Of a DNA stretch of 64,000 bases, positions 3,664 through 21,768 are shown one piece after another. The stretch is from a virus: positions 1 to 64,000 of the IMG/VR virus record IMGVR_UViG_3300019776_000324. The stretch is one strand, 5' to 3'. Below the pieces are notes generated by a model. It saw only the letters and a program-made list of their open reading frames with translations. It had not been told where the DNA came from and did not search any database. Made by a program: the position numbers and the translations under genes. Each line of letters begins with the position of its first letter. Position 1 is the first letter of the stretch.

Positions 3664-3692
3664 TTGACCCAAAATGCCCAATTTGCTATAAT
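3664..3692 (+). promoter_or_regulatory. sigma70-consensus promoter (TTGACC-N17-TATAAT) with conserved downstream box
   Basis: TTGACC 3664-3669, TATAAT 3687-3692, then AGTTGTATAGTAAG and AGGAG SD before ATG 3723. Confidence 0.7.
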
Positions 3693-3722
3693 AGTTGTAT
3701 AGTAAGTAAAAAGGAGCACAAA

Positions 3723-4073
3723 ATGAGTCAAAAATTCTTCCTAGGCGATCGTGTTCGTATTGCTAAAGACTTAGGTGCAAGCATGAGCCACTTTGAGAGC
3801 GATTGTGAAGCTATTGTGATGTATTCATATGCTGAACAATACGACGGTAGTGCTAAGAATGTTGATAAGTTTAGCCTGTATATACTTCCTAATCGTGGTG
3901 AAACTTCATGGTACTATGCTGACCAACTTACTCTTATCGAACCAGATCGTTTGGATCTGTTGCCAAAAAGCCACATTGCTCGTAAAAACTCTGAAGCTAA
4001 ACAAGCTCGCGACAAGGATCTTGTAGTGTGGTTAAAACAAGGCATCAAAGAAAAAGAATTAGTAGTTGACTGA
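3723..4073 (+). CDS. hypothetical protein (116 aa)
   Basis: ATG 8 nt after AGGAG. The track start at 3651 is upstream of the promoter and was rejected. Confidence 0.55.
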   Translation: MSQKFFLGDRVRIAKDLGASMSHFESDCEAIVMYSYAEQYDGSAKNVDKFSLYILPNRGETSWYYADQLTLIEPDRLDLLPKSHIARKNSEAKQARDKDLVVWLKQGIKEKELVVD

Positions 4074-4094
4074 TAATTCAGTTAATTGTATAAT
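4066..4094 (+). promoter_or_regulatory. sigma70-consensus promoter (TTGACT-N17-TATAAT)
   Basis: TTGACT 4066-4071 overlaps the stop codon of the upstream gene. TATAAT 4089-4094, then GTAGTTTAGTAGTTAAT and AAGGACA SD before ATG 4146. Confidence 0.65.
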
Positions 4095-4145
4095 GTAGTT
4101 TAGTAGTTAATTTTAATCGTAGTTTAATTTTTTAAGGACACAGCC

Positions 4146-5231
4146 ATGTCAGATACAAGAACAGTCAATTCAGTTCAAGCTCGTAAAAGTTTACTGAAAG
4201 CATTCAAAAAACAACGCCCATTATTTTTATGGGGTCCTCCTGGTATTGGTAAGTCAGAGTTGGTTGCTGACTTGACTGAAGAACTAGGTGGTGCTATGAT
4301 CGACCTTCGGTTGGGTCAGATGGAGCCGACAGATATTCGCGGTATTCCTTTTTATAACAAAGATTTGGGCAAGATGGATTGGGCTGAGCCTATCGATTTG
4401 CCAGATGCAGAATTTGCTGGACAGTATCCGATTGTAGTCTTGTTCTTGGACGAGATGAATTCAGCGGCACCATCAGTTCAAGCGGCTGCTTATCAGTTGA
4501 TTTTGAATCGTCGTATTGGCAAGTATAAAATGCCAGACAATGTAGTTATTGTGGCCGCAGGTAATCGCGAGTCAGACAAAGGTGTTACATATCGTATGCC
4601 TACTCCGCTTGCAAATCGTTTCATTCACCAAGAGATGAAGGTAGACTTTGCGGCTTGGCAAGATTGGGCTGTTAACCACGGCATCCATAAAGATGTGGTT
4701 GGTTACTTGACCTACGCTAAACAGGACTTGAATGAGTTCGATGCTAAATCAGCTAGTCGTGCATTCGCTACTCCACGCTCATGGACATTCGTATCACAGT
4801 TGTTAGAAGACGAAGATGGTGATGATGACACTATCATGAACTTGGTTGCAGGCACTGTAGGTGAAGGACTTGCTGTTAAGTTTATGGCACACCGCAAGAT
4901 TGCTGGTAAAATGCCTAAGCCAGAAGATATCTTGGCTGGTAAGGAAAAAGAGCTGAATGTCAAAGAAGTATCGGCTATGTACAGCTTGGTAATCTCCATG
5001 TGCTACGAGCTTAAAGCGGCTGTAGAAGCCAAGGTAGAGGACAAGAAGTTCCATGAAATGGCAGATAACTTCTTTGCCTACATGATGAAGAACTTTGAAA
5101 CTGAACTTGTGGTAATGGGAGCCCGCATAGCACTTACGACCTATAATTTGCCATTCCAACCAACTAAGTTGAAAAACTTTGATGAGTTCCATAAAAGATA
5201 CGGCAAGTATATTTTACAAGCCAGTGCATAG
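4146..5231 (+). CDS. MoxR/CobS-like AAA+ ATPase (AAA_5 type)
   Basis: Walker A LWGPPGIGKSELV. Walker B VVLFLDEMN. Sensor region VVIVAAGNRE...MPTPLANRF. About 360 aa, typical of MoxR/CobS. Confidence 0.75.
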   Translation: MSDTRTVNSVQARKSLLKAFKKQRPLFLWGPPGIGKSELVADLTEELGGAMIDLRLGQMEPTDIRGIPFYNKDLGKMDWAEPIDLPDAEFAGQYPIVVLFLDEMNSAAPSVQAAAYQLILNRRIGKYKMPDNVVIVAAGNRESDKGVTYRMPTPLANRFIHQEMKVDFAAWQDWAVNHGIHKDVVGYLTYAKQDLNEFDAKSASRAFATPRSWTFVSQLLEDEDGDDDTIMNLVAGTVGEGLAVKFMAHRKIAGKMPKPEDILAGKEKELNVKEVSAMYSLVISMCYELKAAVEAKVEDKKFHEMADNFFAYMMKNFETELVVMGARIALTTYNLPFQPTKLKNFDEFHKRYGKYILQASA

Positions 5232-5236
5232 TAAAC

Positions 5237-5310
5237 AACTTGGGTGGTGCCACCCAAGGCTGTGTCTCACTACCCAGGTTGGCAAAAGGAGCTTAGGCTC
5301 CTTTTGTTTT
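5237..5310. terminator. bidirectional intrinsic terminator between convergent genes
   Basis: Hairpin CTTGGGTGG/CCACCCAAG (5239-5258). Hairpin AAAAGGAGC-ttag-GCTCCTTTT (5284-5305) followed by GTTTTG on +; on - the hairpin spans the stop codon of the 5293..5505 gene and is followed by TTTTGCC. Confidence 0.5.
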
Positions 5311-5505
5311 GCCCTTTAATGCTTCACTAATCTTACGCTTGGTCTCTTCACTCATTGTATAGGTCCGACCTTTCATTGGCGATACACGACCTTTTAATTT
5401 AGCTGATCTTTTAGCATTCGCTTCTTCGGTTTGCGGTTTACCAGGCAACCCATTTTTAGCCCAGGTTGACCTGAAATTAGCTCTATAGTATAATAGTGTT
5501 ATCAT
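5293..5505 (-). CDS. NUMOD3-repeat DNA-binding protein, probably a remnant of a freestanding homing endonuclease
   Basis: Two NUMOD3-like repeats (QTEEANAKRSAKLKGR and MSEETKRKISEALKGKTKG). Lone - strand gene in a + block, wedged between a terminator and a promoter. No nuclease domain present. Confidence 0.45.
   Translation of the reverse strand: MITLLYYRANFRSTWAKNGLPGKPQTEEANAKRSAKLKGRVSPMKGRTYTMSEETKRKISEALKGKTKGA
5466..5494 (+). promoter_or_regulatory. sigma70-consensus promoter (TTGACC-N17-TATAAT)
   Basis: TTGACC 5466-5471, TATAAT 5489-5494, then AGTGTTATCAT. Lies inside the 5' end of the - strand NUMOD3 ORF and drives the small-gene array. Confidence 0.6.
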
Positions 5506-5525
5506 GTTAAAAACAGGGGCAAATA

Positions 5526-5753
5526 ATGACTAAACTATTAATAGATCGCCTAGATAGATTAACTCTCCTGGTATCTGAATACTATTTTCCTCAATGGATC
5601 GAACAAGGGTATGGAGCACCAAAAGAAAGCTCCTGGCGTCAAATATTTGAATGGTGTTTAGACTGTGGCATTGAGTGTAATAGAGGTCGTGGCACTACCT
5701 TAAGATTTCATAAAGAAACAGATGTTACAGCATTTATGTTAAAGTGGAGTTGA
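5526..5753 (+). CDS. small-protein family member (C-term FMLKWS)
   Basis: 75 aa; the tail AFMLKWS matches the array consensus. Confidence 0.6.
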   Translation: MTKLLIDRLDRLTLLVSEYYFPQWIEQGYGAPKESSWRQIFEWCLDCGIECNRGRGTTLRFHKETDVTAFMLKWS

Positions 5754-5755
5754 AA

Positions 5756-5956
5756 ATGAACTATTTAAGTATAGCACAGATTGATGAAGTAAAGATGGAA
5801 ATGGATGACCTGCTGATACCTATCGCAAAGATTAGTTTAAGTATTCGTCCTGAAGATATACAAAATATGATAATGATGCACGGCCCAGACTTTATGCCAG
5901 AACTACAGCGTATGATTGGCGAAATTGTATTGGATTCTTATAAGACTCAGGATTAA
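5756..5956 (+). CDS. small hypothetical protein (66 aa, no family tail)
   Basis: ATG 3 nt after the upstream TGA. The track GTG start at 5744 was rejected. Confidence 0.45.
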   Translation: MNYLSIAQIDEVKMEMDDLLIPIAKISLSIRPEDIQNMIMMHGPDFMPELQRMIGEIVLDSYKTQD

Positions 5957-5993
5957 ACAGGCTGTGTCGCTACAGCCTTCCACCTTTACTATT

Positions 5994-6332
5994 ATGTTCA
6001 CTATGAAATTTAAAATCGTCAAAACTGATCGTAGGCATACTGCCAATCAAGTATTCCGGTACTATGTTGAGCCTGCATACGAATTAGGTGTTGGCCGTGA
6101 CGAGCGTATTGAAATGTTTAAAGAGTTGCGAGCTTGGTGTTGGGAACAGTTTGGGCCTGGTTGCGAGCGTGATTATGTTGTGCTACACCCGGTTCCTGCG
6201 GGCATAGATGGTCAGTGTCGAATGGCAACTCAAGAGCGTTGGGCTTGGCTTACTACAACTGACACTAATTCGGTGTTGAGAATCTATTTTAACGATGATG
6301 AACTAGCGTGGTTTAAACTCAAGTGGGCATGA
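5994..6332 (+). CDS. small-protein family member (C-term WFKLKWA)
   Basis: Start set at the first ATG after the upstream stop; the track start 5916 overlaps the previous gene. Tail DDDELAWFKLKWA. Confidence 0.5.
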   Translation: MFTMKFKIVKTDRRHTANQVFRYYVEPAYELGVGRDERIEMFKELRAWCWEQFGPGCERDYVVLHPVPAGIDGQCRMATQERWAWLTTTDTNSVLRIYFNDDELAWFKLKWA

Positions 6333-6538
6333 TGATTCGAATTGCCAATTTACAACAGCGTGATGGAATCCATCACTGGCTCAAAGATCGTGGAATCTAT
6401 CGTGATCTTTATGAGTTGGGTTATGACTTTGGTGATTCATCTGACGAGGGCATAGAACTCTGGCCCGTGCTTAGAATCAACGACGGTGTGTTATCAGCAA
6501 CTGATGTAACTGAATTTATATTAAGGTTTGGTGTATGA
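6329..6538 (+). CDS. small-protein family member (variant tail FILRFGV)
   Basis: ATGA overlap with the upstream stop; 69 aa. Confidence 0.5.
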   Translation: MMIRIANLQQRDGIHHWLKDRGIYRDLYELGYDFGDSSDEGIELWPVLRINDGVLSATDVTEFILRFGV

Positions 6539-6735
6539 CCCAGGTTGAATGTCACATACCTATGAGCCGTATGGAGGAGATTACAGAATGGTTGCACAAC
6601 AACATCGGCCCAGGTTGGATACACCCCGACACACATGTTTGGAGTTATGGTGAGCTGTATGAATCAGTTCATTTTAGCCGTGAACAGGATGCCGTTATGT
6701 TTAAACTAAAATGGGCTGGAAATGAAAACATATAA
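6535..6735 (+). CDS. small-protein family member (tail EQDAVMFKLKWAGNENI)
   Basis: ATGA overlap; 66 aa. Confidence 0.6.
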   Translation: MTQVECHIPMSRMEEITEWLHNNIGPGWIHPDTHVWSYGELYESVHFSREQDAVMFKLKWAGNENI

Positions 6736-7075
6736 GCGTACAATTATTATCCGTGAAAGAGATCTTTGTAGTCTAATGTACAAGACTATTAAAAAAGGCC
6801 TGTTTGACCGCATTGATGTAGAACCGTTAACCTATCAAGAAATACAAAACGAAATATTAATAGATACATTAAAGGGCACACCAACTCGTAAGTGGAGTGT
6901 ATTGCCTGATGTGTATGAAACACTAATGTACAAGGAAGGTAACTTGTACAACAAGCAGTATTTGTCCTGGTTGTTGACCATGGATTATCCTAACGGACAG
7001 ATCTATGTGCAGAGCCGTTCAGGCGAACCCACTGATCCTTTACACCGTGTGACTTTTGAGAAAGACTATGCGTAA
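6722..7075 (+). CDS. hypothetical protein (117 aa)
   Basis: ORF in the array without the family tail. Confidence 0.5.
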   Translation: MKTYKRTIIIRERDLCSLMYKTIKKGLFDRIDVEPLTYQEIQNEILIDTLKGTPTRKWSVLPDVYETLMYKEGNLYNKQYLSWLLTMDYPNGQIYVQSRSGEPTDPLHRVTFEKDYA

Positions 7076-7313
7076 ACGCCTACACGAATCTCGTTACTTT
7101 AGACTGCAACAAGAGCACACAGCCAAAGGTCGCAAGTTCTATAGAATTGTATTCTGGAAACTGTGGCCACTGAGCGTAGACGACGAAGAACGAATTAGAG
7201 ATGTAATAGATCCACAGCGTAGCCGAAGTGGTCGAAATGGAACCAATTGGAAATATACTAATCGCAAGGAAGCAGAACAAATGTATAGTATGTTGTTGTT
7301 AAGGTGGAGTTAA
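7068..7313 (+). CDS. small-protein family member (tail MLLLRWS)
   Basis: ATG 7068 overlaps the upstream stop; the track TTG start at 7056 was rejected. Confidence 0.55.
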   Translation: MRKRLHESRYFRLQQEHTAKGRKFYRIVFWKLWPLSVDDEERIRDVIDPQRSRSGRNGTNWKYTNRKEAEQMYSMLLLRWS

Positions 7314-7315
7314 AG

Positions 7316-7675
7316 ATGAAACATTATTTGTCATTTATTCAGTGGTTAATTCAGCGTATGTTTCGGACTGTTATATCAGGACCAGTTAGACTTTTTAAAT
7401 GGTATAAAGGTCGACTATATTACGAAACATTTTTAACCATACTGGCATCCATTGTTGGTTGGGCCATGCTGTTATTTGCAGGTGCTGTCGCATCAACTAC
7501 TAATGTTAATGGTAAGTTGGTAGTTGAGACTGATGATGTTTGGCCATTTATAATAGCTTTGTTTGCGCCGCCTGTGGTGTTTATTGTGGCTTGCGTTTCT
7601 ATTCAATATGATCATTACTGTTCAGAGCTAGAGCGCACTATGAAAACTCTTAAAGGCAAGCATGACAGTATATAA
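7316..7675 (+). CDS. small membrane protein (2 TM)
   Basis: ATG 3 nt after the upstream TAA. Hydrophobic helices LASIVGWAMLLFAGAV and WPFIIALFAPPVVFIVACV. Confidence 0.5.
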   Translation: MKHYLSFIQWLIQRMFRTVISGPVRLFKWYKGRLYYETFLTILASIVGWAMLLFAGAVASTTNVNGKLVVETDDVWPFIIALFAPPVVFIVACVSIQYDHYCSELERTMKTLKGKHDSI

Positions 7676-7865
7676 AGCAAAGATGCCAGAAGCATGGGCT
7701 CGTATGGAATGGTGTCGAGCTCAGTTCGGTGGCGAAGGTGAACCAAATTGGGAAAAGTATGGCGGAGTTGATATTGCCCATGGACTACGCTGGTGGCGTA
7801 GACAAGGCTACTTGTTCTTTCGCAATGAACGAGATTTTGTCCTATACTGTTTGAGGTGGGCATGA
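7662..7865 (+). CDS. small-protein family member (tail RDFVLYCLRWA)
   Basis: 67 aa; ends in the conserved junction TTGAGGTGGGCATGA. Confidence 0.6.
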   Translation: MTVYKAKMPEAWARMEWCRAQFGGEGEPNWEKYGGVDIAHGLRWWRRQGYLFFRNERDFVLYCLRWA

Positions 7866-8227
7866 AGATTAAAGAATTTTACCATGAGTTTGAAATGCTA
7901 GTGCGACCAAGTTCACGCAGGTTGCGTCGTATGAAAAATCCTGGATACAGATCCGATGTATGGAATGCCTATATCGATGATTCTATGATATATGACATCA
8001 GTAATGTTGCTGAAGAAGTTGAGTGTGTGGAGGTGCTCATGCCTGCGGACCGTCTTGAAGAGTTGGAACAACTATTAAAACATTATGAAAAAATGGAAGA
8101 ATCGCATCAGCACAGGCATGTTGTTATTAGTAAGCTGAGAGAGGACGAGCGAGTGCGTATTAAAAATCCTGCTGTTCGTCAAGCATGGGAACACTACTTA
8201 ACATTATTAAACTTGTGCAGAGATTAA
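7862..8227 (+). CDS. hypothetical protein (121 aa)
   Basis: ATGA overlap start. No family tail. Confidence 0.5.
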   Translation: MKIKEFYHEFEMLVRPSSRRLRRMKNPGYRSDVWNAYIDDSMIYDISNVAEEVECVEVLMPADRLEELEQLLKHYEKMEESHQHRHVVISKLREDERVRIKNPAVRQAWEHYLTLLNLCRD

Positions 8228-8228
8228 G

Positions 8229-8471
8229 ATGAATAGCAAAGATAGACGCAAAGATCGTAGAGCATGGAAGTATTCTGTAGCTACTCCTCATGTAATGATG
8301 ACTGGAGTTGCGGGCATGCAAGACGAGTATGATGCAATGTGGAACTGGTGCAAGGAAAACTTTGGTAGCGATGCTCGTTACTGTGGATGGCGTGATCGTG
8401 AGTGGGGTGAGCGTTGGGAGTTTAACGACAGTAAGAAAGCTGCACTATTTTCTCTAAGGTGGAGTAGATGA
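8229..8471 (+). CDS. small-protein family member (tail KKAALFSLRWSR)
   Basis: 80 aa. Confidence 0.6.
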   Translation: MNSKDRRKDRRAWKYSVATPHVMMTGVAGMQDEYDAMWNWCKENFGSDARYCGWRDREWGERWEFNDSKKAALFSLRWSR

Positions 8472-8803
8472 AACTAGAACCTTGGCAGGCAGAAGTATTT
8501 GTTAAGTATTGCGAGAATGATATCAAAATGACCATGAATATAGGCCGTCAGACGGGCAAATCAACATGGGTAAGTATGTTAAGGAACTTTATGGAACGAC
8601 CAGAAAAACGATTTCAATTAGTATCGGGAATCTATAACTACTCACTAATGATCGAAGACTACATGTGGTGGGCTGACAATGAGCGTGAAATACTTAACTG
8701 GATGGCGGAGAACTTACCGCGCGGCATTGAACATCAACAGGGCATGATTCTTACATTTGATACAGACAAACAGCGTATGATGTTCTTGTTGAGGTGGGCA
8801 TGA
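8468..8803 (+). CDS. small-protein family member (tail KQRMMFLLRWA)
   Basis: ATGA overlap; 111 aa. Confidence 0.6.
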   Translation: MKLEPWQAEVFVKYCENDIKMTMNIGRQTGKSTWVSMLRNFMERPEKRFQLVSGIYNYSLMIEDYMWWADNEREILNWMAENLPRGIEHQQGMILTFDTDKQRMMFLLRWA

Positions 8804-9075
8804 CAGTAAAGTATGTTGACGGTTGGTACGAAATAGAGCATCTCCCGCCTAAAGAGATCTGGGCAGTTCATAGCAAAGAATGGGCATGGAAACCTAGACG
8901 AAATTGGTGTAGGAAAACATTTGCTCCGGGTGAATGGGAAATGCGCGATCCTATATATCATTACAGTATAGGTCCTAGCGGACCCGGTAAACGAATACTA
9001 TCAACTACACCATTAACCTGGCGATTCAAGCGTGAAGCTGATGCCTTGTTGTTTACCTTAAGGTGGGCCAAATGA
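8800..9075 (+). CDS. small-protein family member (tail ADALLFTLRWAK)
   Basis: ATG 8800 (track GTG 8794 rejected). ATGA overlap. Confidence 0.6.
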   Translation: MTVKYVDGWYEIEHLPPKEIWAVHSKEWAWKPRRNWCRKTFAPGEWEMRDPIYHYSIGPSGPGKRILSTTPLTWRFKREADALLFTLRWAK

Positions 9076-9353
9076 ATGTTGCTATCCAGCGTGTAACCGA
9101 TATACTTGAAAATTTAATAGCCGAAGAGGCCGCAAAAGAAATGCAAGCAAGTATGGACTATGATGTGCTATGTGAAGTAATGATACCATTTGGTTATACT
9201 GCTGTCCAAATTGAGTACGGCAACAACAAGCGGTGGATTGATGTCATGGCATGGGTGGACAGCAACCGTGTTGGTGATTATCAAGAGCACAAAGGTAAAT
9301 GGTTGTTTAAAAATGAACAAGATGCTATAATGTTTAAGTTGAGGTGGGCCTGA
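9072..9353 (+). CDS. small-protein family member (tail EQDAIMFKLRWA)
   Basis: ATG 9072 overlaps the upstream TGA. Confidence 0.6.
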   Translation: MNVAIQRVTDILENLIAEEAAKEMQASMDYDVLCEVMIPFGYTAVQIEYGNNKRWIDVMAWVDSNRVGDYQEHKGKWLFKNEQDAIMFKLRWA

Positions 9354-9544
9354 TGTTTGATGAAAAGAATCGTGTTATAGTATTATCCGCTGGCAGTACA
9401 CAACAGGAGAAACTTGATTGGTGTTGTGATCATTTGGCAGGAACGGTTATGTGCCATCCTATCACTTACGGTCTTGATGATGCTGAGATATGGTATTTTG
9501 AAACGGGTGAAGAATCTACTATGTTTGCGTTAAGGTGGGCATGA
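9353..9544 (+). CDS. small-protein family member (tail EESTMFALRWA)
   Basis: TGATG 1-nt overlap; 63 aa. Confidence 0.55.
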   Translation: MFDEKNRVIVLSAGSTQQEKLDWCCDHLAGTVMCHPITYGLDDAEIWYFETGEESTMFALRWA

Positions 9545-9780
9545 AGATAGAAACTACATGGGATAACCTTAATAAGGTCCCTTGGACAGCAATTAACCGA
9601 GCTGGTGACTATTATCATACGCATGTTAGATCTACAAAGGGTGCTTTCATTGATAGATTAAAGGCCGGTGCCGAATATAGCGCCTGGATGCGAAACAATT
9701 GGGGAATACACCACGAGCCTTTGGAATTCAAAATAGTCGATGAGAAAAAATACACCATGTTCTTGTTGAGGTGGGCATGA
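9541..9780 (+). CDS. small-protein family member (tail EKKYTMFLLRWA)
   Basis: ATGA overlap. Confidence 0.6.
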   Translation: MKIETTWDNLNKVPWTAINRAGDYYHTHVRSTKGAFIDRLKAGAEYSAWMRNNWGIHHEPLEFKIVDEKKYTMFLLRWA

Positions 9781-10007
9781 AAGTAAAGAAAACCGATCCA
9801 ACCTTGTTTGTTGATCCGTATGGAGAAGCCAAACAGAAGTTGTTGAACCGAGGCTATGTTGCTATACCAGTGACTAAGAATCATAACTGGACCGGCATTC
9901 ATGAATGGTGCAAACAATATCTACACTTTGACTACACCTGGTTTGGTTTAGAATTTTGGTTTGCTGACGAACAAGATGCTGTGTTATTTCAGTTGAGGTG
10001 GGCATAA
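9777..10007 (+). CDS. small-protein family member (tail EQDAVLFQLRWA)
   Basis: ATGA overlap. Confidence 0.6.
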   Translation: MKVKKTDPTLFVDPYGEAKQKLLNRGYVAIPVTKNHNWTGIHEWCKQYLHFDYTWFGLEFWFADEQDAVLFQLRWA

Positions 10008-10177
10008 TGTCACTTAATCAAGATTATGCAGTTTCGTGTAAAAACATAACCAACGACCAATGGAACTGGTTGTGCAATACCATAGGAACTCCTACAAAAG
10101 ATTGGCACTATAACTTTGCACATATTTGGTTCTATAAAGAAGAACATAAGACTCTTTGGCTGTTGAGGTGGGCATAA
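10007..10177 (+). CDS. small-protein family member (56 aa, tail HKTLWLLRWA), absent from the ORF track
   Basis: ATG at 10007 overlaps the upstream TAA (TAATG). Translates to MSLNQDYAVSCKNITNDQWNWLCNTIGTPTKDWHYNFAHIWFYKEEHKTLWLLRWA. Ends in the same TTGAGGTGGGCATAA junction. Confidence 0.55.
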   Translation: MSLNQDYAVSCKNITNDQWNWLCNTIGTPTKDWHYNFAHIWFYKEEHKTLWLLRWA

Positions 10178-10178
10178 C

Positions 10179-10427
10179 ATGGCACAATTTTATCAAGGAC
10201 CACACTTTTGGGACAAGAGTACTTACGAAGTTACTGTAAAGACTACTCGGTATCGCGTTCGCCAAGTGTGGATTGATGATATGATCAAGTGGGCTAAAGA
10301 ACGAGAAATAAGCATTCACTGGCAAGGCGAAAGCACTCATGTCCACAACGATGATGAATGGCACGAAGCACACTTCTGCATTTACGACAGCAATGATCGT
10401 ATGTTATTTGCGTTGAGGTGGGCATGA
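10179..10427 (+). CDS. small-protein family member (tail NDRMLFALRWA)
   Basis: 82 aa. Confidence 0.6.
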   Translation: MAQFYQGPHFWDKSTYEVTVKTTRYRVRQVWIDDMIKWAKEREISIHWQGESTHVHNDDEWHEAHFCIYDSNDRMLFALRWA

Positions 10428-10723
10428 GTCTATCAAATCAAGCAAAGAATATAAAAGGTCACATGGATCTGTTTCCAGAAAAGTGGAACGATAACCGTGC
10501 CAAACGAGATAGATTTTGGGCGATGTTAAGACGGGTCAAATCAGACTATTTTACCCTAGTCAAAGATTTGGGCAACGATCCCGACGATGGAAGTTTTTAT
10601 ACATACATGCAGGATACCTATGGTATAAAACTAATATTAACAAACCGTGGTGAGATCACAGACATGTTTGAAGTTACAGATGAAAAGAAACAAATGATGT
10701 TTATTTTAAAATACGGATCATGA
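10424..10723 (+). CDS. small-protein family member (variant tail KKQMMFILKYGS)
   Basis: ATGA overlap. Confidence 0.55.
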   Translation: MSLSNQAKNIKGHMDLFPEKWNDNRAKRDRFWAMLRRVKSDYFTLVKDLGNDPDDGSFYTYMQDTYGIKLILTNRGEITDMFEVTDEKKQMMFILKYGS

Positions 10724-14822: not shown

Positions 14823-14852
14823 ATTACATATAGTTAGAAATTAGGAGCAGAA

Positions 14853-15143
14853 ATGGACAAGATTTACTTCGTACTTGGGTTTACTTTGTTTTGGACTGTG
14901 GCTATTGTTCTGGCAGGTATTGTTCTTATGTATGTTTACCATGCTGTTAAAACCGTTCCAATGGCAATAGATTTTTTTCGCTGGTACCGATTTTATGCTA
15001 TTCGACATAATCCTGAATGGGAATCTCGAGTAGGTATTGTTCACAATTATATTGCGGCATTTATTAGTGTTTGGGATTACAACGAAAATACCCGTATCAC
15101 TCACCATGCTGGTGTAGTTTACAAACCCTACGCATGGAAGTGA
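14853..15143 (+). CDS. small membrane protein (96 aa, 2-3 TM)
   Basis: AGGAG SD. Hydrophobic helices. Confidence 0.55.
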   Translation: MDKIYFVLGFTLFWTVAIVLAGIVLMYVYHAVKTVPMAIDFFRWYRFYAIRHNPEWESRVGIVHNYIAAFISVWDYNENTRITHHAGVVYKPYAWK

Positions 15144-15172
15144 TTGACCAAATAATCCATTTATAGTATAAT
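15144..15172 (+). promoter_or_regulatory. sigma70-consensus promoter (TTGACC-N17-TATAAT)
   Basis: TTGACC 15144-15149 lies immediately after the upstream TGA. TATAAT 15167-15172, then AGTTGTATAGTTAATAAAAGGAG before ATG 15201. Confidence 0.7.
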
Positions 15173-15200
15173 AGTTGTATAGTTAATAAAAGGAGCCCAT

Positions 15201-15530
15201 ATGTTAGAACGCAATTTAGATACTAGAGAAGCACCTACAAAATGGTGGGCGGCGCAAGATGCTCGCATGCGTAACTTGGCAAATAAAAGTCACTACGATG
15301 AGCAAACTCAAATTCGCGTTGAACGCATGATCATGGCCCTGGGTCTTTGCTACAATGCAAAAGGTATTCACGAAGCGTTTGGCAAGCGGGGTGTGAGTAT
15401 CAAAGTAGACCGTCCTACTTCAATCAAAGATCGCGTGAATCTCAAATTGCTAGAACAAGATTGGGAAGAGGCGGGTGTAACTAAAAAGGTAAGCCCACAG
15501 GGCGTTATCTATAGATTCTCTGCAGATTGA
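15201..15530 (+). CDS. hypothetical protein (109 aa)
   Basis: AAGGAG SD 7 nt upstream. Confidence 0.55.
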   Translation: MLERNLDTREAPTKWWAAQDARMRNLANKSHYDEQTQIRVERMIMALGLCYNAKGIHEAFGKRGVSIKVDRPTSIKDRVNLKLLEQDWEEAGVTKKVSPQGVIYRFSAD

Positions 15531-15555
15531 CCTATAATTCCATTAATAGTATAAT
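15527..15555 (+). promoter_or_regulatory. sigma70-consensus promoter (TTGACC-N17-TATAAT)
   Basis: TTGACC 15527-15532 overlaps the upstream TGA. TATAAT 15550-15555, then AGTAGTATAGTTAATAACAAAGGCAG before ATG 15584. Confidence 0.7.
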
Positions 15556-15583
15556 AGTAGTATAGTTAATAACAAAGGCAGAT

Positions 15584-16867
15584 ATGACCACTAGCACACA
15601 AAACAAAAAAGAATCAGACAAGTTTAAAAACTTATTGGGTCCGACTAACCCTAAAGTTGATGCAGATGTTCGTGAGAAGTTGATTACTGCTCGTGTGGGC
15701 TTGTTACTTCGTGCAAGTTTCTTTGGTAACTTGGCTACTCGCTTAAAGTTAGTCAATGCTGATGAATGGTGTCCAACAGCCGCAACTGATGGTCGTCACT
15801 TTTACTACAATACCCGTTTCGTAAACATGCTCAAGCCAAAAGAGATTGAGTTCTTGTTTGGTCATGAGGTCTTGCACTGTGTTTACGATCACTTTGGCCG
15901 TCGTGGCGATCGTGACCATCAACTGTTTAACATTGCCAATGACTATTGCGTAAACGCAGACTTGAAGAAACATCGTGTGGGCGAGTTTATTACATCAGTA
16001 CCTTGCTTGTACGATGCCAAGTACGAAGGTATGAGTTCAGAAGAGATTTATGATCTCTTGTATGAAAATGCTGAAAAGATCAATATCAGTGATTTGATTG
16101 ACAAATTGCTCGATGATCACTTGGATGGTAATGGTGACGGGGAAGGTGAAGATGGCGATGAGAAAGATGGCAAAGGCAAGGGTCGCCCTAAACTAAGCGC
16201 AGAAGAGCGTCAACAGATCAAAGATGAGATCAAAGAAGCTGTATTGGCTGCGGCTGCCGCTAGCGACGGTGCAGGTAACTTGCCAGCAGGTGTCAAGCGT
16301 ATCATTGAAGATATGACTGCACCTAAAATGAACTGGCGCGAGTTGTTGCGTATGCAATTAGAGTCAACTATCAAGACTGACTACACTTGGATGCGCTCTA
16401 GCCGTAAAGGCTGGCACATGGATGCTATTATGCCTGGACAGAAGTTTGATGAGCTTATTGATATTGCTGTTAGTATTGACGCTTCAGGCAGTATGGGCGA
16501 AGCTATGCTCAAAGATATCTTGTCAGAAGTGCAAGGTATTGTAGACAGTTTCCCAGCTTACAAACTGCACATTGTATCGTTTGATACTCAGATTTACAAT
16601 CCACAGACTTACGACAGTGAGAACTTGGACAATCTAGTAGACTACGAAATCCACGGTGGTGGCGGTACAGACTTTGATTGTGTGTTTGAATACTTCAAAG
16701 AAAATGACATCCAACCCAAGCGTCATATCATGTTTACTGACGGTTACCCATGTGGTAGTTGGGGTGATGAGAACTACTGTGATACTGTGTTTATCATGCA
16801 CGGTACTACTAGCATTGTTCCACCGTTTGGTCAGTACGCTTACTATGAGGAAGAAAAGAGTCACTAA
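15584..16867 (+). CDS. metallopeptidase-like (HExxH) plus von Willebrand factor A domain protein, partner of MoxR-type AAA+ ATPases
   Basis: GHEVLHCVYDH zinc-binding-type motif in the N-terminal half. MIDAS motif DASGSMG and downstream T/D ligands in the C-terminal half. An acidic Gly/Asp/Glu/Lys linker (DGNGDGEGEDGDEKDGKGKG) joins them. Confidence 0.65.
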   Translation: MTTSTQNKKESDKFKNLLGPTNPKVDADVREKLITARVGLLLRASFFGNLATRLKLVNADEWCPTAATDGRHFYYNTRFVNMLKPKEIEFLFGHEVLHCVYDHFGRRGDRDHQLFNIANDYCVNADLKKHRVGEFITSVPCLYDAKYEGMSSEEIYDLLYENAEKINISDLIDKLLDDHLDGNGDGEGEDGDEKDGKGKGRPKLSAEERQQIKDEIKEAVLAAAAASDGAGNLPAGVKRIIEDMTAPKMNWRELLRMQLESTIKTDYTWMRSSRKGWHMDAIMPGQKFDELIDIAVSIDASGSMGEAMLKDILSEVQGIVDSFPAYKLHIVSFDTQIYNPQTYDSENLDNLVDYEIHGGGGTDFDCVFEYFKENDIQPKRHIMFTDGYPCGSWGDENYCDTVFIMHGTTSIVPPFGQYAYYEEEKSH

Positions 16868-18194: not shown

Positions 18195-18382
18195 AACTTA
18201 ACCAATTGGTCAAAGAGCAGGCGAATGTCAACAGCATTGACAAATTAATGATCTTAGTATATAATTTAATTTTAGTAGCTGGTGCATGCTATCTGGTTTA
18301 TTACAAGGATGCCAGTGCTTGGTTGTTCTTGTTGGTGCTAGCACTGGCTGGTAGTTGGAAAGAAAGCAAAAAAGATGATTAA
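18185..18382 (+). CDS. small membrane protein (65 aa)
   Basis: ATG 18185; the track start 18143 was rejected. Hydrophobic LVYNLILVAGACYLVYY...LFLLVLALAG. Confidence 0.4.
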   Translation: MEIKLNQLVKEQANVNSIDKLMILVYNLILVAGACYLVYYKDASAWLFLLVLALAGSWKESKKDD

Positions 18383-18551
18383 AATTTGGTTAGGATTTGC
18401 AATATTGTTTAGTGCGTTTTACACTGGTATTCCGACATTTAGACATATGACTGGTAAAGAAAAGTGGAACTTGACAAAAACTGTATTGTTTAGTATAATT
18501 TGTAGTGCGTTAGCAATTGCCACAATGATGTTATTTGTAATTGTATTCTAA
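18375..18551 (+). CDS. small membrane protein (58 aa), absent from the ORF track
   Basis: ATGATTAA overlap with the upstream stop. Translates to MIKIWLGFAILFSAFYTGIPTFRHMTGKEKWNLTKTVLFSIICSALAIATMMLFVIVF. Confidence 0.45.
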   Translation: MIKIWLGFAILFSAFYTGIPTFRHMTGKEKWNLTKTVLFSIICSALAIATMMLFVIVF

Positions 18552-19778: not shown

Positions 19779-19811
19779 GAAACACCCCTAAATGGGGTGT
19801 TTTTATTTTTT
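19779..19811 (+). terminator. intrinsic terminator
   Basis: AAACACCCC-taaat-GGGGTGTTT stem followed by TTTATTTTTT. Confidence 0.75.
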
Positions 19812-19840
19812 GAGCTGTCATTTATACATTAAATATCAGT

Positions 19841-20074
19841 ATGGAAAATACAACTAACAATACCCAAATTACTATTGCAGATCTAGACACACTTAGAAAC
19901 ATTGTGGATCTGGCCTGCACCCGTGGTGCTTTCCGTGGCGCAGAACTTACACAAGTTGGTGTGATCTACGACAAGCTCACTCAGTTCCTTGCTGCCGTAA
20001 TCGAGCAAGCCAAGGCACAAGAAGAATCAAACAACTCAGCCGAGCCAGCTGACAACCAATCTCAAGGAGAATAA
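19841..20074 (+). CDS. hypothetical protein (77 aa)
   Basis: ORF immediately after the terminator. Confidence 0.45.
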   Translation: MENTTNNTQITIADLDTLRNIVDLACTRGAFRGAELTQVGVIYDKLTQFLAAVIEQAKAQEESNNSAEPADNQSQGE

Positions 20075-20075
20075 C

Positions 20076-20804
20076 ATGGCATTTACTAAATTTGTAGGCA
20101 AACACGGAGATCGCAGAGTCTGCGTATTGTTCAGACAGGTACCCGGCGAAGATCACATGGCGTTGATTATCTATCCAGATACTATTCACGCACACTGGCA
20201 AGACGCTATTCAAAAGGTTCTTGAAAGTGACCTGTGTCAACAAGGCGAAGAGTTTGCTGATGCGCTACATCGCAACTACTTCCCAGACGGTCGTCCAATG
20301 TTAGAAACATTGCACCAAGAGCGCATGATCAAGAAGGTACGCACTGCTGATATCATCATGACTCCTAATGCTTCTAGCAACATTCGGTTAGATGAACTCA
20401 ACAAGATGTTGAACGAAATGAAACTGGGCGAAGCTGCTATCAAGAAAATGGCTGAAAGTGATGCTAGCCGTGGTATGGTTGCTCCAGAAGTCAAGCGCAA
20501 AGCTGAAGCAGAATACAAAGCTAGTCAAGCACAAAAAGCAGATCCTGCGTATGTTGCTCCCCCGACACTCAAAGCAGGTCAAGATGGTGCACTATCAGAC
20601 CGTGACATTGCTGCTAACATGTTGGCACAAGCCAAAGCTATGGAAGTTAACGCACACAATATGATCGCTGAAGCAGCACGCATGAAGAAAGATGCAGAAC
20701 GCATGGATCCGACTGTTACTGCTAAAGCAACGGCACCTACTACAACCCAGACTAAAGCTAAACGCGGCCGTCCTGCTAAGGTAGCAGATGCAGCTCAATC
20801 TTGA
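20076..20804 (+). CDS. hypothetical protein with C-terminal AT-hook (possible DNA-binding protein)
   Basis: C-terminal KAKRGRPAKVA contains the GRP core of an AT-hook. Ala/Lys-rich low-complexity C-terminal half. Confidence 0.5.
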   Translation: MAFTKFVGKHGDRRVCVLFRQVPGEDHMALIIYPDTIHAHWQDAIQKVLESDLCQQGEEFADALHRNYFPDGRPMLETLHQERMIKKVRTADIIMTPNASSNIRLDELNKMLNEMKLGEAAIKKMAESDASRGMVAPEVKRKAEAEYKASQAQKADPAYVAPPTLKAGQDGALSDRDIAANMLAQAKAMEVNAHNMIAEAARMKKDAERMDPTVTAKATAPTTTQTKAKRGRPAKVADAAQS

Positions 20805-21090
20805 TTTTTTAGATCAGTGGGAACATATATTAGCAGATGTAGTTAAGACGGATGTTCCCCTAGAGTGTATTAAGAAAGTAGTTATCAAGTTAGCCGGTGG
20901 TAAACAGAAAACTATTAATGTACACACTCTATTAAAGCAGGGTATGGAGTTAGAAGAAGTTGAAAGCATGCTCACTAGATTTTTTAATGAGAACGATCAT
21001 CATATTCGCGATGTAGACTTTGTAGTAGACATCAACTCCGTAGCCAAAATTGTTCAACCAGAAACAGATAAATTATTAGGTAAACTTTGA
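20788..21090 (+). CDS. hypothetical protein (100 aa)
   Basis: ORF only. Confidence 0.4.
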   Translation: MQLNLDFLDQWEHILADVVKTDVPLECIKKVVIKLAGGKQKTINVHTLLKQGMELEEVESMLTRFFNENDHHIRDVDFVVDINSVAKIVQPETDKLLGKL

Positions 21091-21749
21091 AAGTAACATT
21101 AGTTTCGTCGAGCCAACCTAGCGCAGAATTAGCAAGTCAAGGCATAATCAATTGCCAAGAGTTGGTTGCTTACTGCGCTAGGGTTAGCAATCCAGCTAAC
21201 CAAACCAACACAGACACCAGCGAAAAGCTGATCCGTTATCTTATCAAACACAAGCATTGGTCACCATTAGAAATGGTAAGTGCTTGTTTAGAAATTGAAA
21301 CTACAAGAGATATTGCTAGACAGATCTTGCGTCACCGTAGCTTCAGCTTCCAAGAGTTCAGTCAGCGTTATGCTGTAGCAGACTTGGGTTGGGAGTTTAA
21401 AGAAACCAGACTACAAGACACCAAGAACCGTCAAAACAGTCTGGCCACAGATGACCACATGTTAGACTACGAGTGGCAAACAGTACAAAAGAATCTTGTT
21501 GGGCAAGTACAAGAAGCATACGATTGGGCTATCAAGAACGGTATTGCCAAAGAACAAGCTAGAGCTGTGTTACCAGAAGGTATTACTACTAGCCGTTTAT
21601 ACATGCAAGGCACTTTGCGTAGCTGGTTACACTATATTGAATTGCGTAGTGGACCAGAAACACAAAAGGAACACCGTGAAGTTGCACAAGCCTGCGCTGG
21701 CGCACTTGAATCAATCTTCCCAATGGTTTCAGAATTCCTTGTAAAGTAA
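21087..21749 (+). CDS. thyX: flavin-dependent thymidylate synthase ThyX
   Basis: ThyX signature RHRSFSFQEFSQRY (RHR...S..Q.S.RY). N-terminus MKVTLVS is typical of ThyX. TTG start overlaps the upstream TGA. Confidence 0.75.
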   Translation: MKVTLVSSSQPSAELASQGIINCQELVAYCARVSNPANQTNTDTSEKLIRYLIKHKHWSPLEMVSACLEIETTRDIARQILRHRSFSFQEFSQRYAVADLGWEFKETRLQDTKNRQNSLATDDHMLDYEWQTVQKNLVGQVQEAYDWAIKNGIAKEQARAVLPEGITTSRLYMQGTLRSWLHYIELRSGPETQKEHREVAQACAGALESIFPMVSEFLVK

Positions 21750-21768
21750 ACATAATTCTGCTATAATA
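21739..21768 (+). promoter_or_regulatory. promoter variant (TTGTAA-N18-TATAAT) with ATG 6 nt downstream
   Basis: TATAAT 21763-21768 followed by AGCAGTATG, the same architecture as 14495-14509. The -35 is weak. Confidence 0.45.

What the first reader, a model, noticed from the sequence alone, without database searches (positions are those of the whole stretch)
3664..21768. Family of ~50-nt promoter repeats with perfect sigma70 hexamers, several with the -35 laid over the upstream stop codon
Seen:
- Eight + strand copies of TTGAC[CT]-N17-TATAAT-AGTWGTATAGT(TAATAA) at 3664, 4066, 5466, 14472, 14794, 15144, 15527 and 21739 (weaker).
- The spacer also carries a conserved core (AAATGCCCA or AATTCCATT).
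- In four cases the TGA stop of the upstream gene lies inside or abuts TTGAC (4066, 14794, 15144, 15527).

Inference: these are strong host-RNAP early promoters. The conserved downstream box could be a phage regulator or sigma-appropriation site, or an RNA leader element.
Basis: seen in the sequence. Interest (0 to 1): 0.55.

Follow-up and report, generated by a model that had tools for sequence, protein, structure and literature searches.

The report
Strong promoter cassettes in a jumbo phage
These repeats are near-perfect host-type (sigma-70) promoters, each packaged with a short leader or placed directly on a start codon, that drive the small-gene region of an uncultivated 344-kb jumbo phage; they are real and conserved across hundreds of related phages, but they are an ordinary kind of phage promoter.

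Summary
The window has 9 exact TTGAC-N18-TATAAT sites (0.11 expected), all on the + strand between 3.6 and 18.5 kb, plus a weaker TGn-type site at 21739. The box AGTWGTATAGT is exact at only three sites.

The window is part of a 344.5-kb metagenomic jumbo-phage scaffold, distantly related to Pseudomonas phage PA5oct.

- **Conservation:** the promoters before the MoxR-like ATPase, DUF2201 and 21774 genes recur at the same positions in relatives. For DUF2201, 45 of 63 non-redundant relatives score at least 11/12.
- **Orientation:** all 242 related sites are co-oriented with the genes.
- **Start site:** ATG lies exactly 6 nt after the -10 in 52 of 472 sites, including window 14507 and 21774. This marks leaderless genes and places the start at the 7th nucleotide.
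- **The box:** it is clade-specific (43%, 14% and 0% of sites with increasing distance). It best fits the discriminator, start region and 5' leader of a copied expression cassette, not a universal regulator site.
- **Setting:** the cassettes sit in a hyperplastic region and bound promoter-plus-ORFan modules, like T4 PeSLs but without stem-loops.

Verdict: a new member of a known kind, of modest interest.

The parts
3664..3725 (+). Cassette P3664. -35 TTGACC 3664-3669; TGC + -10 TATAAT 3687-3692; box AGTTGTATAGT 3693-3703; predicted start A3699; SD AAGGAG 3711-3716; ATG 3723 (116-aa ORFan). 5' UTR about 24 nt.
   Evidence: no PHROG or Pfam hit for the gene
3625..3650 (+). Intrinsic terminator (AGGGCTTAACGGCCCT + T7) ending the upstream unit, 14 nt before P3664. 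This is the only terminator-promoter composite in the window.
   Evidence: sequence
4066..4148 (+). Cassette P4066. -35 TTGACT overlaps the stop TGA (4071-4073) of the upstream gene; -10 4089-4094; about 45-nt leader with TAGTT(T)AATTTT repeats; ATG 4146 of the MoxR-like AAA ATPase. A promoter is present before the ATPase gene in essentially all relatives listed.
5239..5307 (.). Two hairpin terminators after the ATPase gene (5239-5258; AAAAGGAGC-TTAG-GCTCCTTTT at 5285-5307) that close the first transcription unit.
   Evidence: for the first; the second read directly from the sequence
5466..5528 (+). Cassette P5466. -35 TTGACC; -10 5489-5494; diverged box AGTGTTATCAT; ATG 5526. It is the only consensus promoter for the 9-kb array of 34 small ORFs (5526-14468).
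14472..14509 (+). Leaderless cassette P14472. -35 TTGACC; -10 14495-14500; AGTAGT; then ATG 14507 exactly at the predicted +1 (96-aa gene). The same geometry and N-terminus occur in the closest relative, L148.
14794..14855 (+). Cassette P14794. The TGA stop of the upstream gene lies inside -35 TTGACT; TGC + -10 14817-14822; box shifted by one base; SD AGGAG; ATG 14853 (96-aa ORFan with no homologue in 80 related loci).
15144..15203 (+). Cassette P15144. Upstream TGA abuts -35 TTGACC; -10 15167-15172; exact box + TAATAA; SD AAGGAG; ATG 15201 (109-aa ORFan).
15527..15586 (+). Cassette P15527. Upstream TGA lies inside -35 TTGACC; -10 15550-15555; exact box + TAATAA; ATG 15584 of the DUF2201 (metallopeptidase/VWA-like) gene. 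The promoter is conserved at this position in relatives down to 57% amino-acid identity.
18237..18265 (+). 12/12 consensus promoter TTGACA-N17-TATAAT inside a 65-aa membrane-protein gene (18186-18382). No box.
18471..18499 (+). 12/12 consensus promoter inside a 58-aa membrane-protein gene (18375-18551), about 57 nt before ATG 18563.
21739..21776 (+). Leaderless, extended -10 promoter. Weak -35 TTGTAA (this is coding sequence of the upstream gene, whose stop is TAA 21747-21749); TGC-TATAAT 21759-21767; AGCAGT; ATG 21774. The TGn, the -10 and an ATG 5-6 nt later are conserved in relatives L206-L209, L212 and L213.
19779..19812 (+). Strong intrinsic terminator (10-bp stem + T-run) that ends the long unit fed by P5466 through P18471.
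5526..15530 (+). Hyperplastic region between the conserved ATPase and DUF2201 genes. The two genes are adjacent (about 1.2 kb from start to start) in distant relatives and 11.4 kb apart here.

Best explanation
These are real promoters read by the host's primary-sigma (sigma-70-type) RNA polymerase.

**Core elements.** Each has a 5/6 or 6/6 -35 element, a 17-bp spacer and a perfect -10. Some also have TGn. Transcription most likely starts at the A seven nucleotides after TATAAT.

**Two forms.**
- (a) A 60-nt expression cassette: promoter, a 22-25-nt unstructured AU-rich leader (AUAGUUAAUAA...), a 6-7-nt Shine-Dalgarno sequence (UAAGGAG), then ATG.
- (b) A leaderless form in which the ATG sits exactly at +1.

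**Layout.** No terminators lie between 5.5 and 19.8 kb, so the promoters add up along the operon. Because the genome is tightly packed, the TGA inside TTGAC often serves as the stop codon of the upstream gene.

**The AGTWGTATAGT box.** It is the discriminator (-6 to -1) plus the first five transcribed bases of one clade-specific version of this cassette. Two processes probably maintain it together:
- general constraints seen across the family (A at -6, T at -1, then A, T, A, G at +1 to +4, and almost no G near the start);
- copying or recombination of whole cassettes within and between related genomes.

The cassettes mark the boundaries of promoter-plus-ORFan modules in a hyperplastic region.

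**Shown:** sequence match, statistical enrichment, orientation, orthologous conservation, the leaderless ATG spike, clade specificity of the box, and variation in module number.

**Inferred:** host RNA polymerase usage, early timing, promoter strength, the exact +1, and recombination as the homogenising force.
For: **Enrichment.** There are 9 exact TTGAC-N18-TATAAT sites against 0.11 expected, all on the + strand ahead of + strand genes.

**Orthologous conservation.**
- Of 63 non-redundant upstream regions of DUF2201 orthologues (57-86% amino-acid identity), 45 score at least 11/12 and 52 at least 10/12. Only 3% of random 130-nt windows from the same loci reach 11/12.
- The ATPase gene is likewise preceded by a promoter in the relatives listed.
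- The 21774 gene keeps TGn, the -10 and a nearby ATG in relatives.

**Orientation.** All 242 non-redundant sites in 1.37 Mb of related loci lie on the gene strand, and none on the other strand.

**Start site.** ATG occurs exactly 6 nt after the -10 in 52 of 472 sites, against 4 each at offsets 5 and 7. Of these, 33 open an ORF of at least 40 codons, and several N-termini are conserved from that ATG. The other mode is at offsets 29-30.

**Spread.** The exact 40-mer occurs in more than 116 IMG/VR stretches. In 185,579 species genomes it gave 7 hits, of which only one 1.9-kb contig, probably mis-binned phage, shows the whole cassette. At least 55 of the 116 loci share proteins with this window.

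**The box.**
- Family logo.
- Sites within 2 mismatches of the box: 24 of 56 in close relatives, 12 of 88 in intermediate ones, 0 of 98 in distant ones. The sixth -35 base switches from C to A in the distant group.
- Cassettes within one locus resemble each other more than cassettes from different loci (0 of 2000 permutations).

**Modules.** The number of promoter-led genes between the last paralogue and DUF2201 is 0, 1 or 3 in different genomes.

**RNA structure.** No Rfam family matches and the cassettes have no significant fold.

**Literature.**
- PA5oct is host-RNA-polymerase dependent, with TTGAC / TATAATA promoters (PMC7318152).
- T4 early promoters also show consensus beyond the hexamers (PMC2988021).
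Against: - There are no transcript data. The host is unknown: only a weak hint points to Betaproteobacteria, from a TctC-like gene whose nearest named cellular homologue (about 31% identity) is from the betaproteobacterium Ramlibacter.
- Early timing is assumed by analogy with other phages.
- PA5oct lacks these promoters at the homologous ATPase locus, and its first 50 kb holds only 4 such sites (3 on the + strand). The dense cassette system is therefore specific to the metagenomic lineage.
- Nucleotide-level identity of spacer and box across genomes whose proteins are only 60-85% identical is more than RNA polymerase contacts are known to require. An additional reader of the sequence is therefore not excluded.
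- The only clearly recent indel found between two close relatives is not bounded by canonical cassettes.
Confidence: 0.75

Rival explanations
1. The AGTWGTATAGT box, perhaps together with the conserved spacer core, is an operator for a lineage-specific phage protein. That protein could be a repressor that shuts off early transcription, or an RNA-polymerase-modifying or appropriation factor. On this view its conservation reflects protein binding rather than intrinsic promoter function.
For: - Box and spacer are conserved at the nucleotide level in more than 116 contigs, upstream of unrelated genes.
- The box is clade-specific and changes together with the sixth -35 base.
- Cassettes within a genome resemble each other more than cassettes between genomes.
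- The spacer has an imperfect AAAT-N-ATTT dyad (sequences).
Against: - Only 3 of 10 window promoters carry the exact box.
- Leaderless promoters replace its 3' half with coding sequence.
- Orthologous promoters in other clades carry unrelated sequence at this position.
- The box has no dyad or direct-repeat structure typical of operators.
- The -35 element that T4-type sigma appropriation replaces is intact.
- No candidate regulator gene was identified.
Confidence: 0.12
2. The second -10-like hexamer TATAGT, at -1 to +5 and 11 bp after TATAAT, recaptures sigma-70 region 2 during early elongation. This would cause a promoter-proximal pause near +16, as at lambda PR'. The pause could allow a factor to load or couple transcription to translation.
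For: - T at -1, A at +1, T at +2, A at +3 and G at +4 are enriched across the family: 59-76%, 76%, 76%, 63% and 47%.
- The hexamer keeps the two key -10 positions, A2 and T6.
- The principle is established for lambdoid PR' and lacUV5 (my own knowledge, not tested here).
Against: - The same bases are expected from the ordinary preference for a pyrimidine at -1 and a purine at +1, and from an AT-rich initial transcript.
- Leaderless promoters have ATG at this position.
- No Q-like antiterminator or pause-dependent function is evident.
- The position (-1 to +5) overlaps the start site itself.
Confidence: 0.06
3. The cassettes are chiefly recombination substrates, like PeSLs. Their sequence identity would be kept up by, and selected for, homologous exchange that shuffles promoter-plus-ORFan modules between co-infecting phages. 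Promoter activity would be the secondary reason for their uniformity.
For: - The ATPase-DUF2201 interval ranges from 1.2 to 11.4 kb across relatives.
- There are 0, 1 or 3 promoter-led single-gene modules before DUF2201 in different genomes. The two extra window modules are ORFans bounded by cassettes.
- Some loci hold identical spacers at non-orthologous cassettes, and cassettes are more alike within a locus.
- The PeSL precedent: PMC2839356 and PMC4122927.
Against: - The cassettes lack the stem-loop that defines PeSLs.
- The flanks of the window/L148 difference are too diverged (48-55% amino-acid identity) to locate breakpoints.
- The one recent indel found (L124 against L126) is not bounded by canonical cassettes.
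- Promoters at the conserved core genes are stably orthologous.
Confidence: 0.3
4. The sites are recognised by a phage-encoded sigma factor or RNA polymerase rather than by the host holoenzyme.
For: - Some jumbo phages encode their own polymerases (background in PMC7318152).
- Only 64 of the 344.5 kb were available, so phage transcription genes could not be surveyed.
Against: - The hexamers and 17-bp spacing are the textbook primary-sigma consensus.
- The closest cultured relative depends on host RNA polymerase.
- The known promoters of phage-encoded polymerases look different.
Confidence: 0.04

Closest known systems
T4 early promoters ('uber' UP/-35/TGn/-10 promoters; Hinton 2010, PMC2988021) and T5 early promoters such as PN25 (the T5 comparison is from my own knowledge)
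   Same: - Near-consensus -35 and -10 elements for the host sigma-70 holoenzyme.
- Extra conserved positions outside the hexamers, including the spacer and the start region.
- Many copies ahead of small genes of unknown function.
- Presumed role in out-competing host promoters.
   Different: - There is no A/T-rich UP element. Information content upstream of -38 is about zero, because that DNA is usually coding.
- TGn is present in only some copies.
- A clade-specific 11-nt box spans the start site.
- About 10% of sites are leaderless.
- Early timing is untested.
PeSLs (promoter-early stem-loops) of T4-type phages (Arbiol 2010, PMC2839356; Comeau 2014, PMC4122927)
   Same: - Repeated 50-70-nt cassettes running from the upstream stop codon through a strong sigma-70 promoter and a Shine-Dalgarno sequence to the start codon.
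- Concentrated in a hyperplastic region ahead of ORFans.
- The number of cassette-bounded modules differs between relatives.
   Different: - The cassettes contain no stable stem-loop or terminator. Only P3664 has a terminator just upstream.
- There is no AT-rich block upstream.
- The phage lineage is unrelated (PA5oct-like jumbo phages).
- Recombination at the cassettes has not been demonstrated.
Promoters of Pseudomonas jumbo phage PA5oct (Lood 2020, PMC7318152)
   Same: - PA5oct is the closest cultured relative, with 51% identity for the ATPase.
- It has 32 putative promoters with TTGAC and TATAATA motifs near RNA-seq transcription start sites, and its infection depends on host RNA polymerase.
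- The A after TATAAT is also the family-wide -6 A found here.
   Different: - PA5oct has no such promoter before its ATPase or DUF2201 homologues, and only 4 such sites (3 on the + strand) in its first 50 kb.
- Neither the AGTWGTATAGT cassette nor a leaderless class was seen there.
Leaderless mRNAs such as lambda cI from PRM (my own knowledge)
   Same: The start codon coincides with the transcription start, and there is no Shine-Dalgarno sequence.
   Different: Here it is a recurrent class, about 10% of the consensus promoters of a lytic-type jumbo-phage lineage. It is inferred from sequence geometry only.

Membership tests
Bacterial primary-sigma (sigma-70) -35/-10 promoter | -35 hexamer close to TTGACA | tested here: met
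   Seven sites match 5/6 (TTGACC or TTGACT) and two match 6/6. Site 21739 matches only 4/6.
Bacterial primary-sigma (sigma-70) -35/-10 promoter | -10 hexamer TATAAT with a 17 +/- 1 bp spacer | tested here: met
   All ten sites match 6/6 and all spacers are 17 bp.
Bacterial primary-sigma (sigma-70) -35/-10 promoter | More frequent than chance, and co-oriented with and just upstream of genes | tested here: met
   9 sites against 0.11 expected. All 242 related sites lie on the gene strand. ATG positions cluster at +1 or 22-24 nt downstream.
Bacterial primary-sigma (sigma-70) -35/-10 promoter | Evolutionary conservation at orthologous positions | tested here: met
Bacterial primary-sigma (sigma-70) -35/-10 promoter | Transcript 5' ends or holoenzyme binding at the site | not testable with these tools
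   No RNA data exist and the host is unknown. The leaderless ATG spike is indirect support only.
T4-type early 'uber' promoter | A/T-rich UP element upstream of -35 | tested here: not met
   The family logo carries at most 0.12 bit at positions -3 to -15 before the -35 hexamer. Only GG at the two bases before TTGAC is conserved.
T4-type early 'uber' promoter | TGn extended -10 | tested here: inconclusive
   Present at 3664, 14794 and 21739 only. Across the family, G at -14 is 46% and T at -15 is 62%.
T4-type early 'uber' promoter | Activity immediately after infection without phage protein synthesis | not testable with these tools
   No expression data.
PeSL (promoter-early stem-loop) cassette | Strong sigma-70-like promoter bracketed by the upstream stop codon and the downstream Shine-Dalgarno sequence and start codon | tested here: met
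PeSL (promoter-early stem-loop) cassette | Stable stem-loop (terminator or attenuator) within or next to the promoter | tested here: not met
   Folding z-scores range from -2.1 to +1.0, with no conserved hairpin. Only P3664 has a terminator 14 nt upstream.
PeSL (promoter-early stem-loop) cassette | Located in hyperplastic regions ahead of ORFans | tested here: met
PeSL (promoter-early stem-loop) cassette | Indels or replacements between relatives with junctions in the cassettes; mini-circles | tested here: inconclusive
   Module number varies as 0, 1 or 3 at cassette boundaries, but the flanks are too diverged to map junctions. One recent indel is not cassette-bounded. Mini-circles cannot be tested.
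Leaderless mRNA gene | Start codon at the transcript 5' end, with no Shine-Dalgarno sequence | tested here: inconclusive
   The geometry fits: ATG lies 6 nt after the -10 at 14507 and 21774, in 52 of 472 family sites, and N-termini are conserved from that ATG. The 5' ends have not been mapped.
Sigma-70-dependent promoter-proximal pause element (lambda PR' type) | A -10-like hexamer in the initially transcribed region that causes a pause | tested here: inconclusive
   TATAGT is present at -1 to +5. Pausing cannot be tested.
T4 middle promoter (sigma appropriation, MotA box) | A MotA-box-like element at -30 replacing the -35 | tested here: not met
   An intact TTGAC -35 with a 17-bp spacer is present at the nine strong sites.

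The most novel reading that the evidence does not exclude
Each clade of this uncultivated jumbo-phage lineage keeps its own homogenised 'dialect' of the promoter's spacer, start region and leader: AGTWGTATAGT-TAATAA here, and other sequences in other clades. On the most novel reading, that dialect is read by a clade-specific phage factor or by a sigma-recapture pause. At the same time it serves as the homology patch for swapping promoter-plus-ORFan modules. That would make it a stem-loop-less functional analogue of PeSLs coupled to a leaderless-translation programme.
Probability: 0.15. Interest if true: 0.55.

Novelty: new member of a known kind. Interest (0 to 1): 0.35.

Why it matters
- **Transcription map.** It gives an evidence-based map for part of an uncultivated 344-kb jumbo phage and a simple sequence signature. 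The 40-mer is found in more than 116 viral contigs and essentially never in cellular genomes, so it tags this phage lineage in metagenomes.
- **Start site from sequence alone.** The leaderless-ATG spike shows that comparative sequence can pin a transcription start to a single nucleotide. It also suggests that leaderless translation is used routinely by these phages.
- **Practical use.** The cassette (consensus promoter, 22-nt AU-rich leader, UAAGGAG) is a compact natural expression module that could be tried in proteobacterial hosts.
- **Limit.** None of this changes current understanding of phage transcription.

Tried and rejected
- **Near-identity DNA search.** A search of 13 kb against 50,697 phage records found nothing. 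The phage is known only from metagenomes.
- **Rfam.** No family matched anywhere in the window. The cassettes have no significant RNA or DNA fold. I therefore dropped the ideas of a structured leader and of a PeSL-type hairpin.
- **Bacterial genome scan.** The exact 40-mer gave 7 hits in species genomes. Six differ in context (TTGACT, other spacers, no cassette), and four of those are in Patescibacteria-type MAGs. One is a probably mis-binned phage fragment. This gave no clue to the host and no sign that the box is a host promoter feature.
- **Second promoter.** I looked for a second -35 element that could serve the TATAGT hexamer. Only 2-3 of 6 bases match, so I rejected a tandem promoter.
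- **Stops in all frames.** I tested the idea that the cassette supplies stop codons in all three frames. One frame stays open, so I rejected it.
- **PA5oct.** Its homologous locus and first 50 kb lack the cassette. Its promoter table is not held in the library.
- **Literature.** String searches for the motif found nothing relevant.
- **Gene function.** PHROGs and Pfam gave no hits for the promoter-proximal small genes.
- **Recent indels.** A search for recent cassette-bounded indels among close relatives found one indel, and it is not bounded by cassettes.
- **Late promoters.** I looked for a T4-like late motif (TATAAATA) before the minus-strand genes and found none.

Full report
**What the window is.** No phage record matches the DNA at near identity. 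Protein searches place it with jumbo phages. The MoxR-like ATPase (4146-5231) is 51% identical to that of Pseudomonas phage PA5oct, and a virion protein also matches PA5oct, Phosso and Atu_ph07. An exact-protein look-up shows the window is part of the ENA metagenome scaffold ZENG19-1_SAMN07679375_METAG-scaffold_13, 344,530 bp long. More than 220 IMG/VR contigs, up to 331 kb, encode a relative of the DUF2201 protein. This is therefore a large, uncultivated lineage. The host is unknown. A phage TctC-like gene has its nearest named cellular homologue (about 31% identity) in the betaproteobacterium Ramlibacter, which is only a weak hint.

**Checking the observation: the hexamers.** TTGAC[CT]-N17-TATAAT is exact at the seven coordinates given. 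With the sixth -35 base left free there are nine exact sites against 0.11 expected, and no shuffle reaches nine. All nine are on the + strand between 3.6 and 18.5 kb, where the genes are also on the + strand. The two additional sites, 18237 and 18471, are perfect 12/12 consensus promoters lying inside two small membrane-protein genes. The 'weaker' site at 21739 has a poor -35 but a TGn-extended -10.

**Checking the observation: the box and the stop codons.**
- It is exact only at 3664, 15144 and 15527.
- It is truncated by a start codon at 14472 and 21739.
- It is shifted by one base at 14794.
- It has diverged at 4066 and 5466.

The overlap between stop codon and -35 is correct for all four cases named.

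**Evidence that these are functional promoters.**
1. *Orthologous conservation.* The DUF2201 gene has a promoter immediately upstream in relatives down to 57% amino-acid identity. Of 63 non-redundant upstream regions, 45 score at least 11/12, against 3% of random windows from the same loci. The ATPase gene is likewise preceded by a promoter, with a longer leader of about 45 nt, in the relatives examined. The 21774 gene keeps TGn, the -10 and a nearby ATG in six relatives, although its N-terminal residues differ.
2. *Orientation.* All 242 non-redundant sites in 1.37 Mb of related loci are on the gene strand.
3. *Start-site geometry.* Across 472 non-redundant sites, ATG occurs exactly 6 nt after the -10 hexamer 52 times, against 4 each at offsets 5 and 7. 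Of these, 33 open an ORF of at least 40 codons, and several have N-termini conserved from that ATG. In the window this applies to P14472 with ATG 14507 and P21739 with ATG 21774. These are most simply leaderless genes, and they place the transcription start on the seventh nucleotide after TATAAT. The main class has ATG at offsets 29-30, which gives a 22-24-nt leader.
4. *A cultured relative.* PA5oct depends on host RNA polymerase and has 32 putative promoters with TTGAC and TATAATA motifs near RNA-seq start sites (PMC7318152).

**What the downstream box is.** I searched IMG/VR for the exact 40-mer TTGACY-N17-TATAATAGTWGTATAGT. Many show the full cassette GG-TTGACC-aRAAATnCCnATTTnGn-TATAAT-AGTWGTATAGT-TAATAAnAAGGAGc-N5-7-ATG in front of unrelated genes, sometimes in tandem arrays about 280 bp apart. 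At least 55 of the 116 loci share proteins with this 64-kb window. In 185,579 bacterial and archaeal species genomes the same pattern gave seven hits. Only one, a 1.9-kb contig that is probably mis-binned phage DNA, shows the whole cassette. The cassette is thus a hallmark of this phage lineage and not a host feature.

I then used loci retrieved by protein similarity, which are unbiased with respect to the box. In these the box is clade-specific. Sites within 2 mismatches of it number 24 of 56 in close relatives, 12 of 88 in intermediate ones and 0 of 98 in distant ones. The distant clade also switches the sixth -35 base from C to A and has a different downstream consensus. Only a weaker pattern is family-wide:
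- GG before the -35;
- A(A/T)AAAT at the start of the spacer;
- partial TGn;
- A at -6 (about 75%);
- T at -1, A at +1, T at +2, A at +3 and G at +4;
- almost no G around the start.

Leaderless promoters keep the discriminator part (AGTAGT, AGCAGT) and replace the rest with coding sequence.

The cassettes have no significant secondary structure and match no Rfam family. Non-orthologous cassettes within one locus resemble each other more than cassettes from different loci, in both spacer and downstream region (0 of 2000 permutations). Some loci carry identical spacers at two cassettes.

The most economical reading is that the box is the discriminator, start site and first leader bases of a cassette that is copied and homogenised within the lineage. 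This copying acts on top of general constraints for an A start and an unstructured AU-rich leader ending in UAAGGAG. An operator for a clade-specific protein, or a sigma-recapture pause at the -10-like TATAGT, cannot be excluded, but neither is needed.

**Genomic setting.** The ATPase and DUF2201 genes are adjacent in the most distant relatives, about 1.2 kb from start to start. They are separated by 2-7.5 kb in closer relatives and by 11.4 kb in this window. The interval is therefore a hyperplastic region. Here it contains two kinds of unit:
- a 9-kb array of 34 tightly packed small ORFs under one promoter, P5466;
- three single-gene modules, each with its own cassette (14472, 14794, 15144), followed by P15527 and DUF2201.

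Relatives have 0, 1 or 3 such modules at this spot. The two extra window genes (14853-15143 and 15201-15530) have no homologue at this position in any of the 80 related loci, and none in PHROGs. One of them has a single 41%-identical hit elsewhere, in L154.

This resembles the PeSL cassettes of T4-type phages (PMC2839356, PMC4122927). The defining stem-loop is absent, however. The only clearly recent indel I found between close relatives is not cassette-bounded. Cassette-mediated shuffling therefore remains a reasonable inference, not a result.

**Transcription units inferred.**
- Unit 1: terminator 3625-3640, then P3664, the ORFan, P4066, the ATPase, and terminators at 5239-5258 and 5285-5307.
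- Unit 2: P5466, the small-ORF array, P14472, P14794, P15144, P15527, DUF2201, P18237, P18471, the SPFH/Band-7 gene, and the terminator at 19779-19803.

With no terminators inside the second unit, promoter output should accumulate toward its distal genes.

**Stop codons over the -35.** In 52 of 240 related sites the TGA inside TTGAC closes the upstream ORF. A second peak uses the TAA in the spacer's AATAAAT. This reflects extreme packing, with the C-terminal codons of the upstream gene occupying the place of a UP element. It does not need a special mechanism.

**Comparison with known systems and verdict.** The sites meet every sequence-level criterion for primary-sigma promoters. They work like T4 and T5 early promoters, and like the promoter half of PeSLs. 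They are not members of the PeSL family in the strict sense, because they lack the stem-loop. They are not T4-type 'uber' promoters, because they lack a UP element. The dense cassette system is absent from PA5oct.

I rate this a new member of a known kind. It is a well-supported promoter family with three mildly interesting features: lineage-wide nucleotide conservation of a whole expression cassette, a recurrent leaderless class, and association with a hyperplastic ORFan region. Interest is 0.35.

Noticed in passing
window 5526-14468 (+): An array of 34 tightly packed small ORFs with overlapping stop and start codons (ATGA, GTGGGCATGA). About 25 are paralogues ending in a shared C-terminal motif, roughly [DE]-x4-5-(M/L/W)F-x-L-(R/K)-(W/F/Y)-(A/G/S)-stop. 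They have no significant Pfam or PHROG hit, and the whole array has only one consensus promoter (P5466).
   Followed up: partly
window 14507-14797 and 21774-22124 (+); related loci L024, L128, L143, L169, L186 and others: Leaderless genes. The ATG lies exactly 6 nt after the -10 hexamer in 52 of 472 family promoter sites, which is about 10% of the consensus promoters of this lineage.
   Followed up: yes
window 18186-18551 (+): Two perfect 12/12 sigma-70 consensus promoters (18237, 18471) are embedded in the coding sequence of two adjacent small membrane-protein genes. The hexamers are read as I-D-K / V-Y-N in one gene and L-T-K / S-I-I in the other.
   Followed up: partly
window 5293-5505 (-): A 70-aa ORF that looks like a NUMOD3-type C-terminal remnant of a homing endonuclease (weak phrog_314 and phrog_655 hits). 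Its 5' end overlaps promoter P5466 on the other strand.
   Followed up: partly
window 32883-38195 (-): Four tandem paralogous radical-SAM proteins. In three of them a SPASM domain was detected N-terminal to the radical-SAM core. A carbamoyltransferase (30265-31773) is adjacent on the same strand, and an NAD-dependent epimerase (22109-23077) lies about 8 kb away on the + strand. This may be a DNA- or sugar-modification cluster.
   Followed up: no
window 47769-61925 (-): A 4718-aa ORF with FG-GAP and CBM5/12 hits. It lies next to a homologue of a PA5oct virion protein (window 45682-46959; PA5oct 45682-47118). PA5oct has a giant virion ORF of about 11.6 kb close by, just beyond its baseplate genes.
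   Followed up: partly
window 2721-3620 (+): A TctC/Bug-family periplasmic solute-binding protein encoded by the phage. Homologues of 38-87% identity form a top-scoring group, several on 237-361-kb contigs. The nearest named cellular protein is about 31% identical (Ramlibacter).
   Followed up: partly
window 4095-4145 (+) and orthologous leaders in L124-L156: The ATPase leader is unusually long (about 45 nt), with repeated TAGTT(T)AATTTT. Close relatives conserve a stretch ...TTAATTTT..AA(T/C)C..AAGGACACAGCC-ATG. It could be a translational control element.
   Followed up: no
window 521-612 (+): ARAGORN calls a 92-nt tRNA-Pro (anticodon AGG) inside ORF 132-1103. This is doubtful.
   Followed up: no
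window 25619-26157 (inside ORF 24088-26484, -): Three or four tandem copies of a repeat about 195-198 nt long within a 798-aa ORF that has no Pfam hit.
   Followed up: no
loci L117, L118, L119, L123 (genome contigs): Four of the seven bacterial-genome hits to the 40-mer are in Patescibacteria-type MAGs (Moranbacteria, Saccharibacteria). They have TTGACT and a different context, so the resemblance is probably chance between AT-rich promoters.
   Followed up: partly
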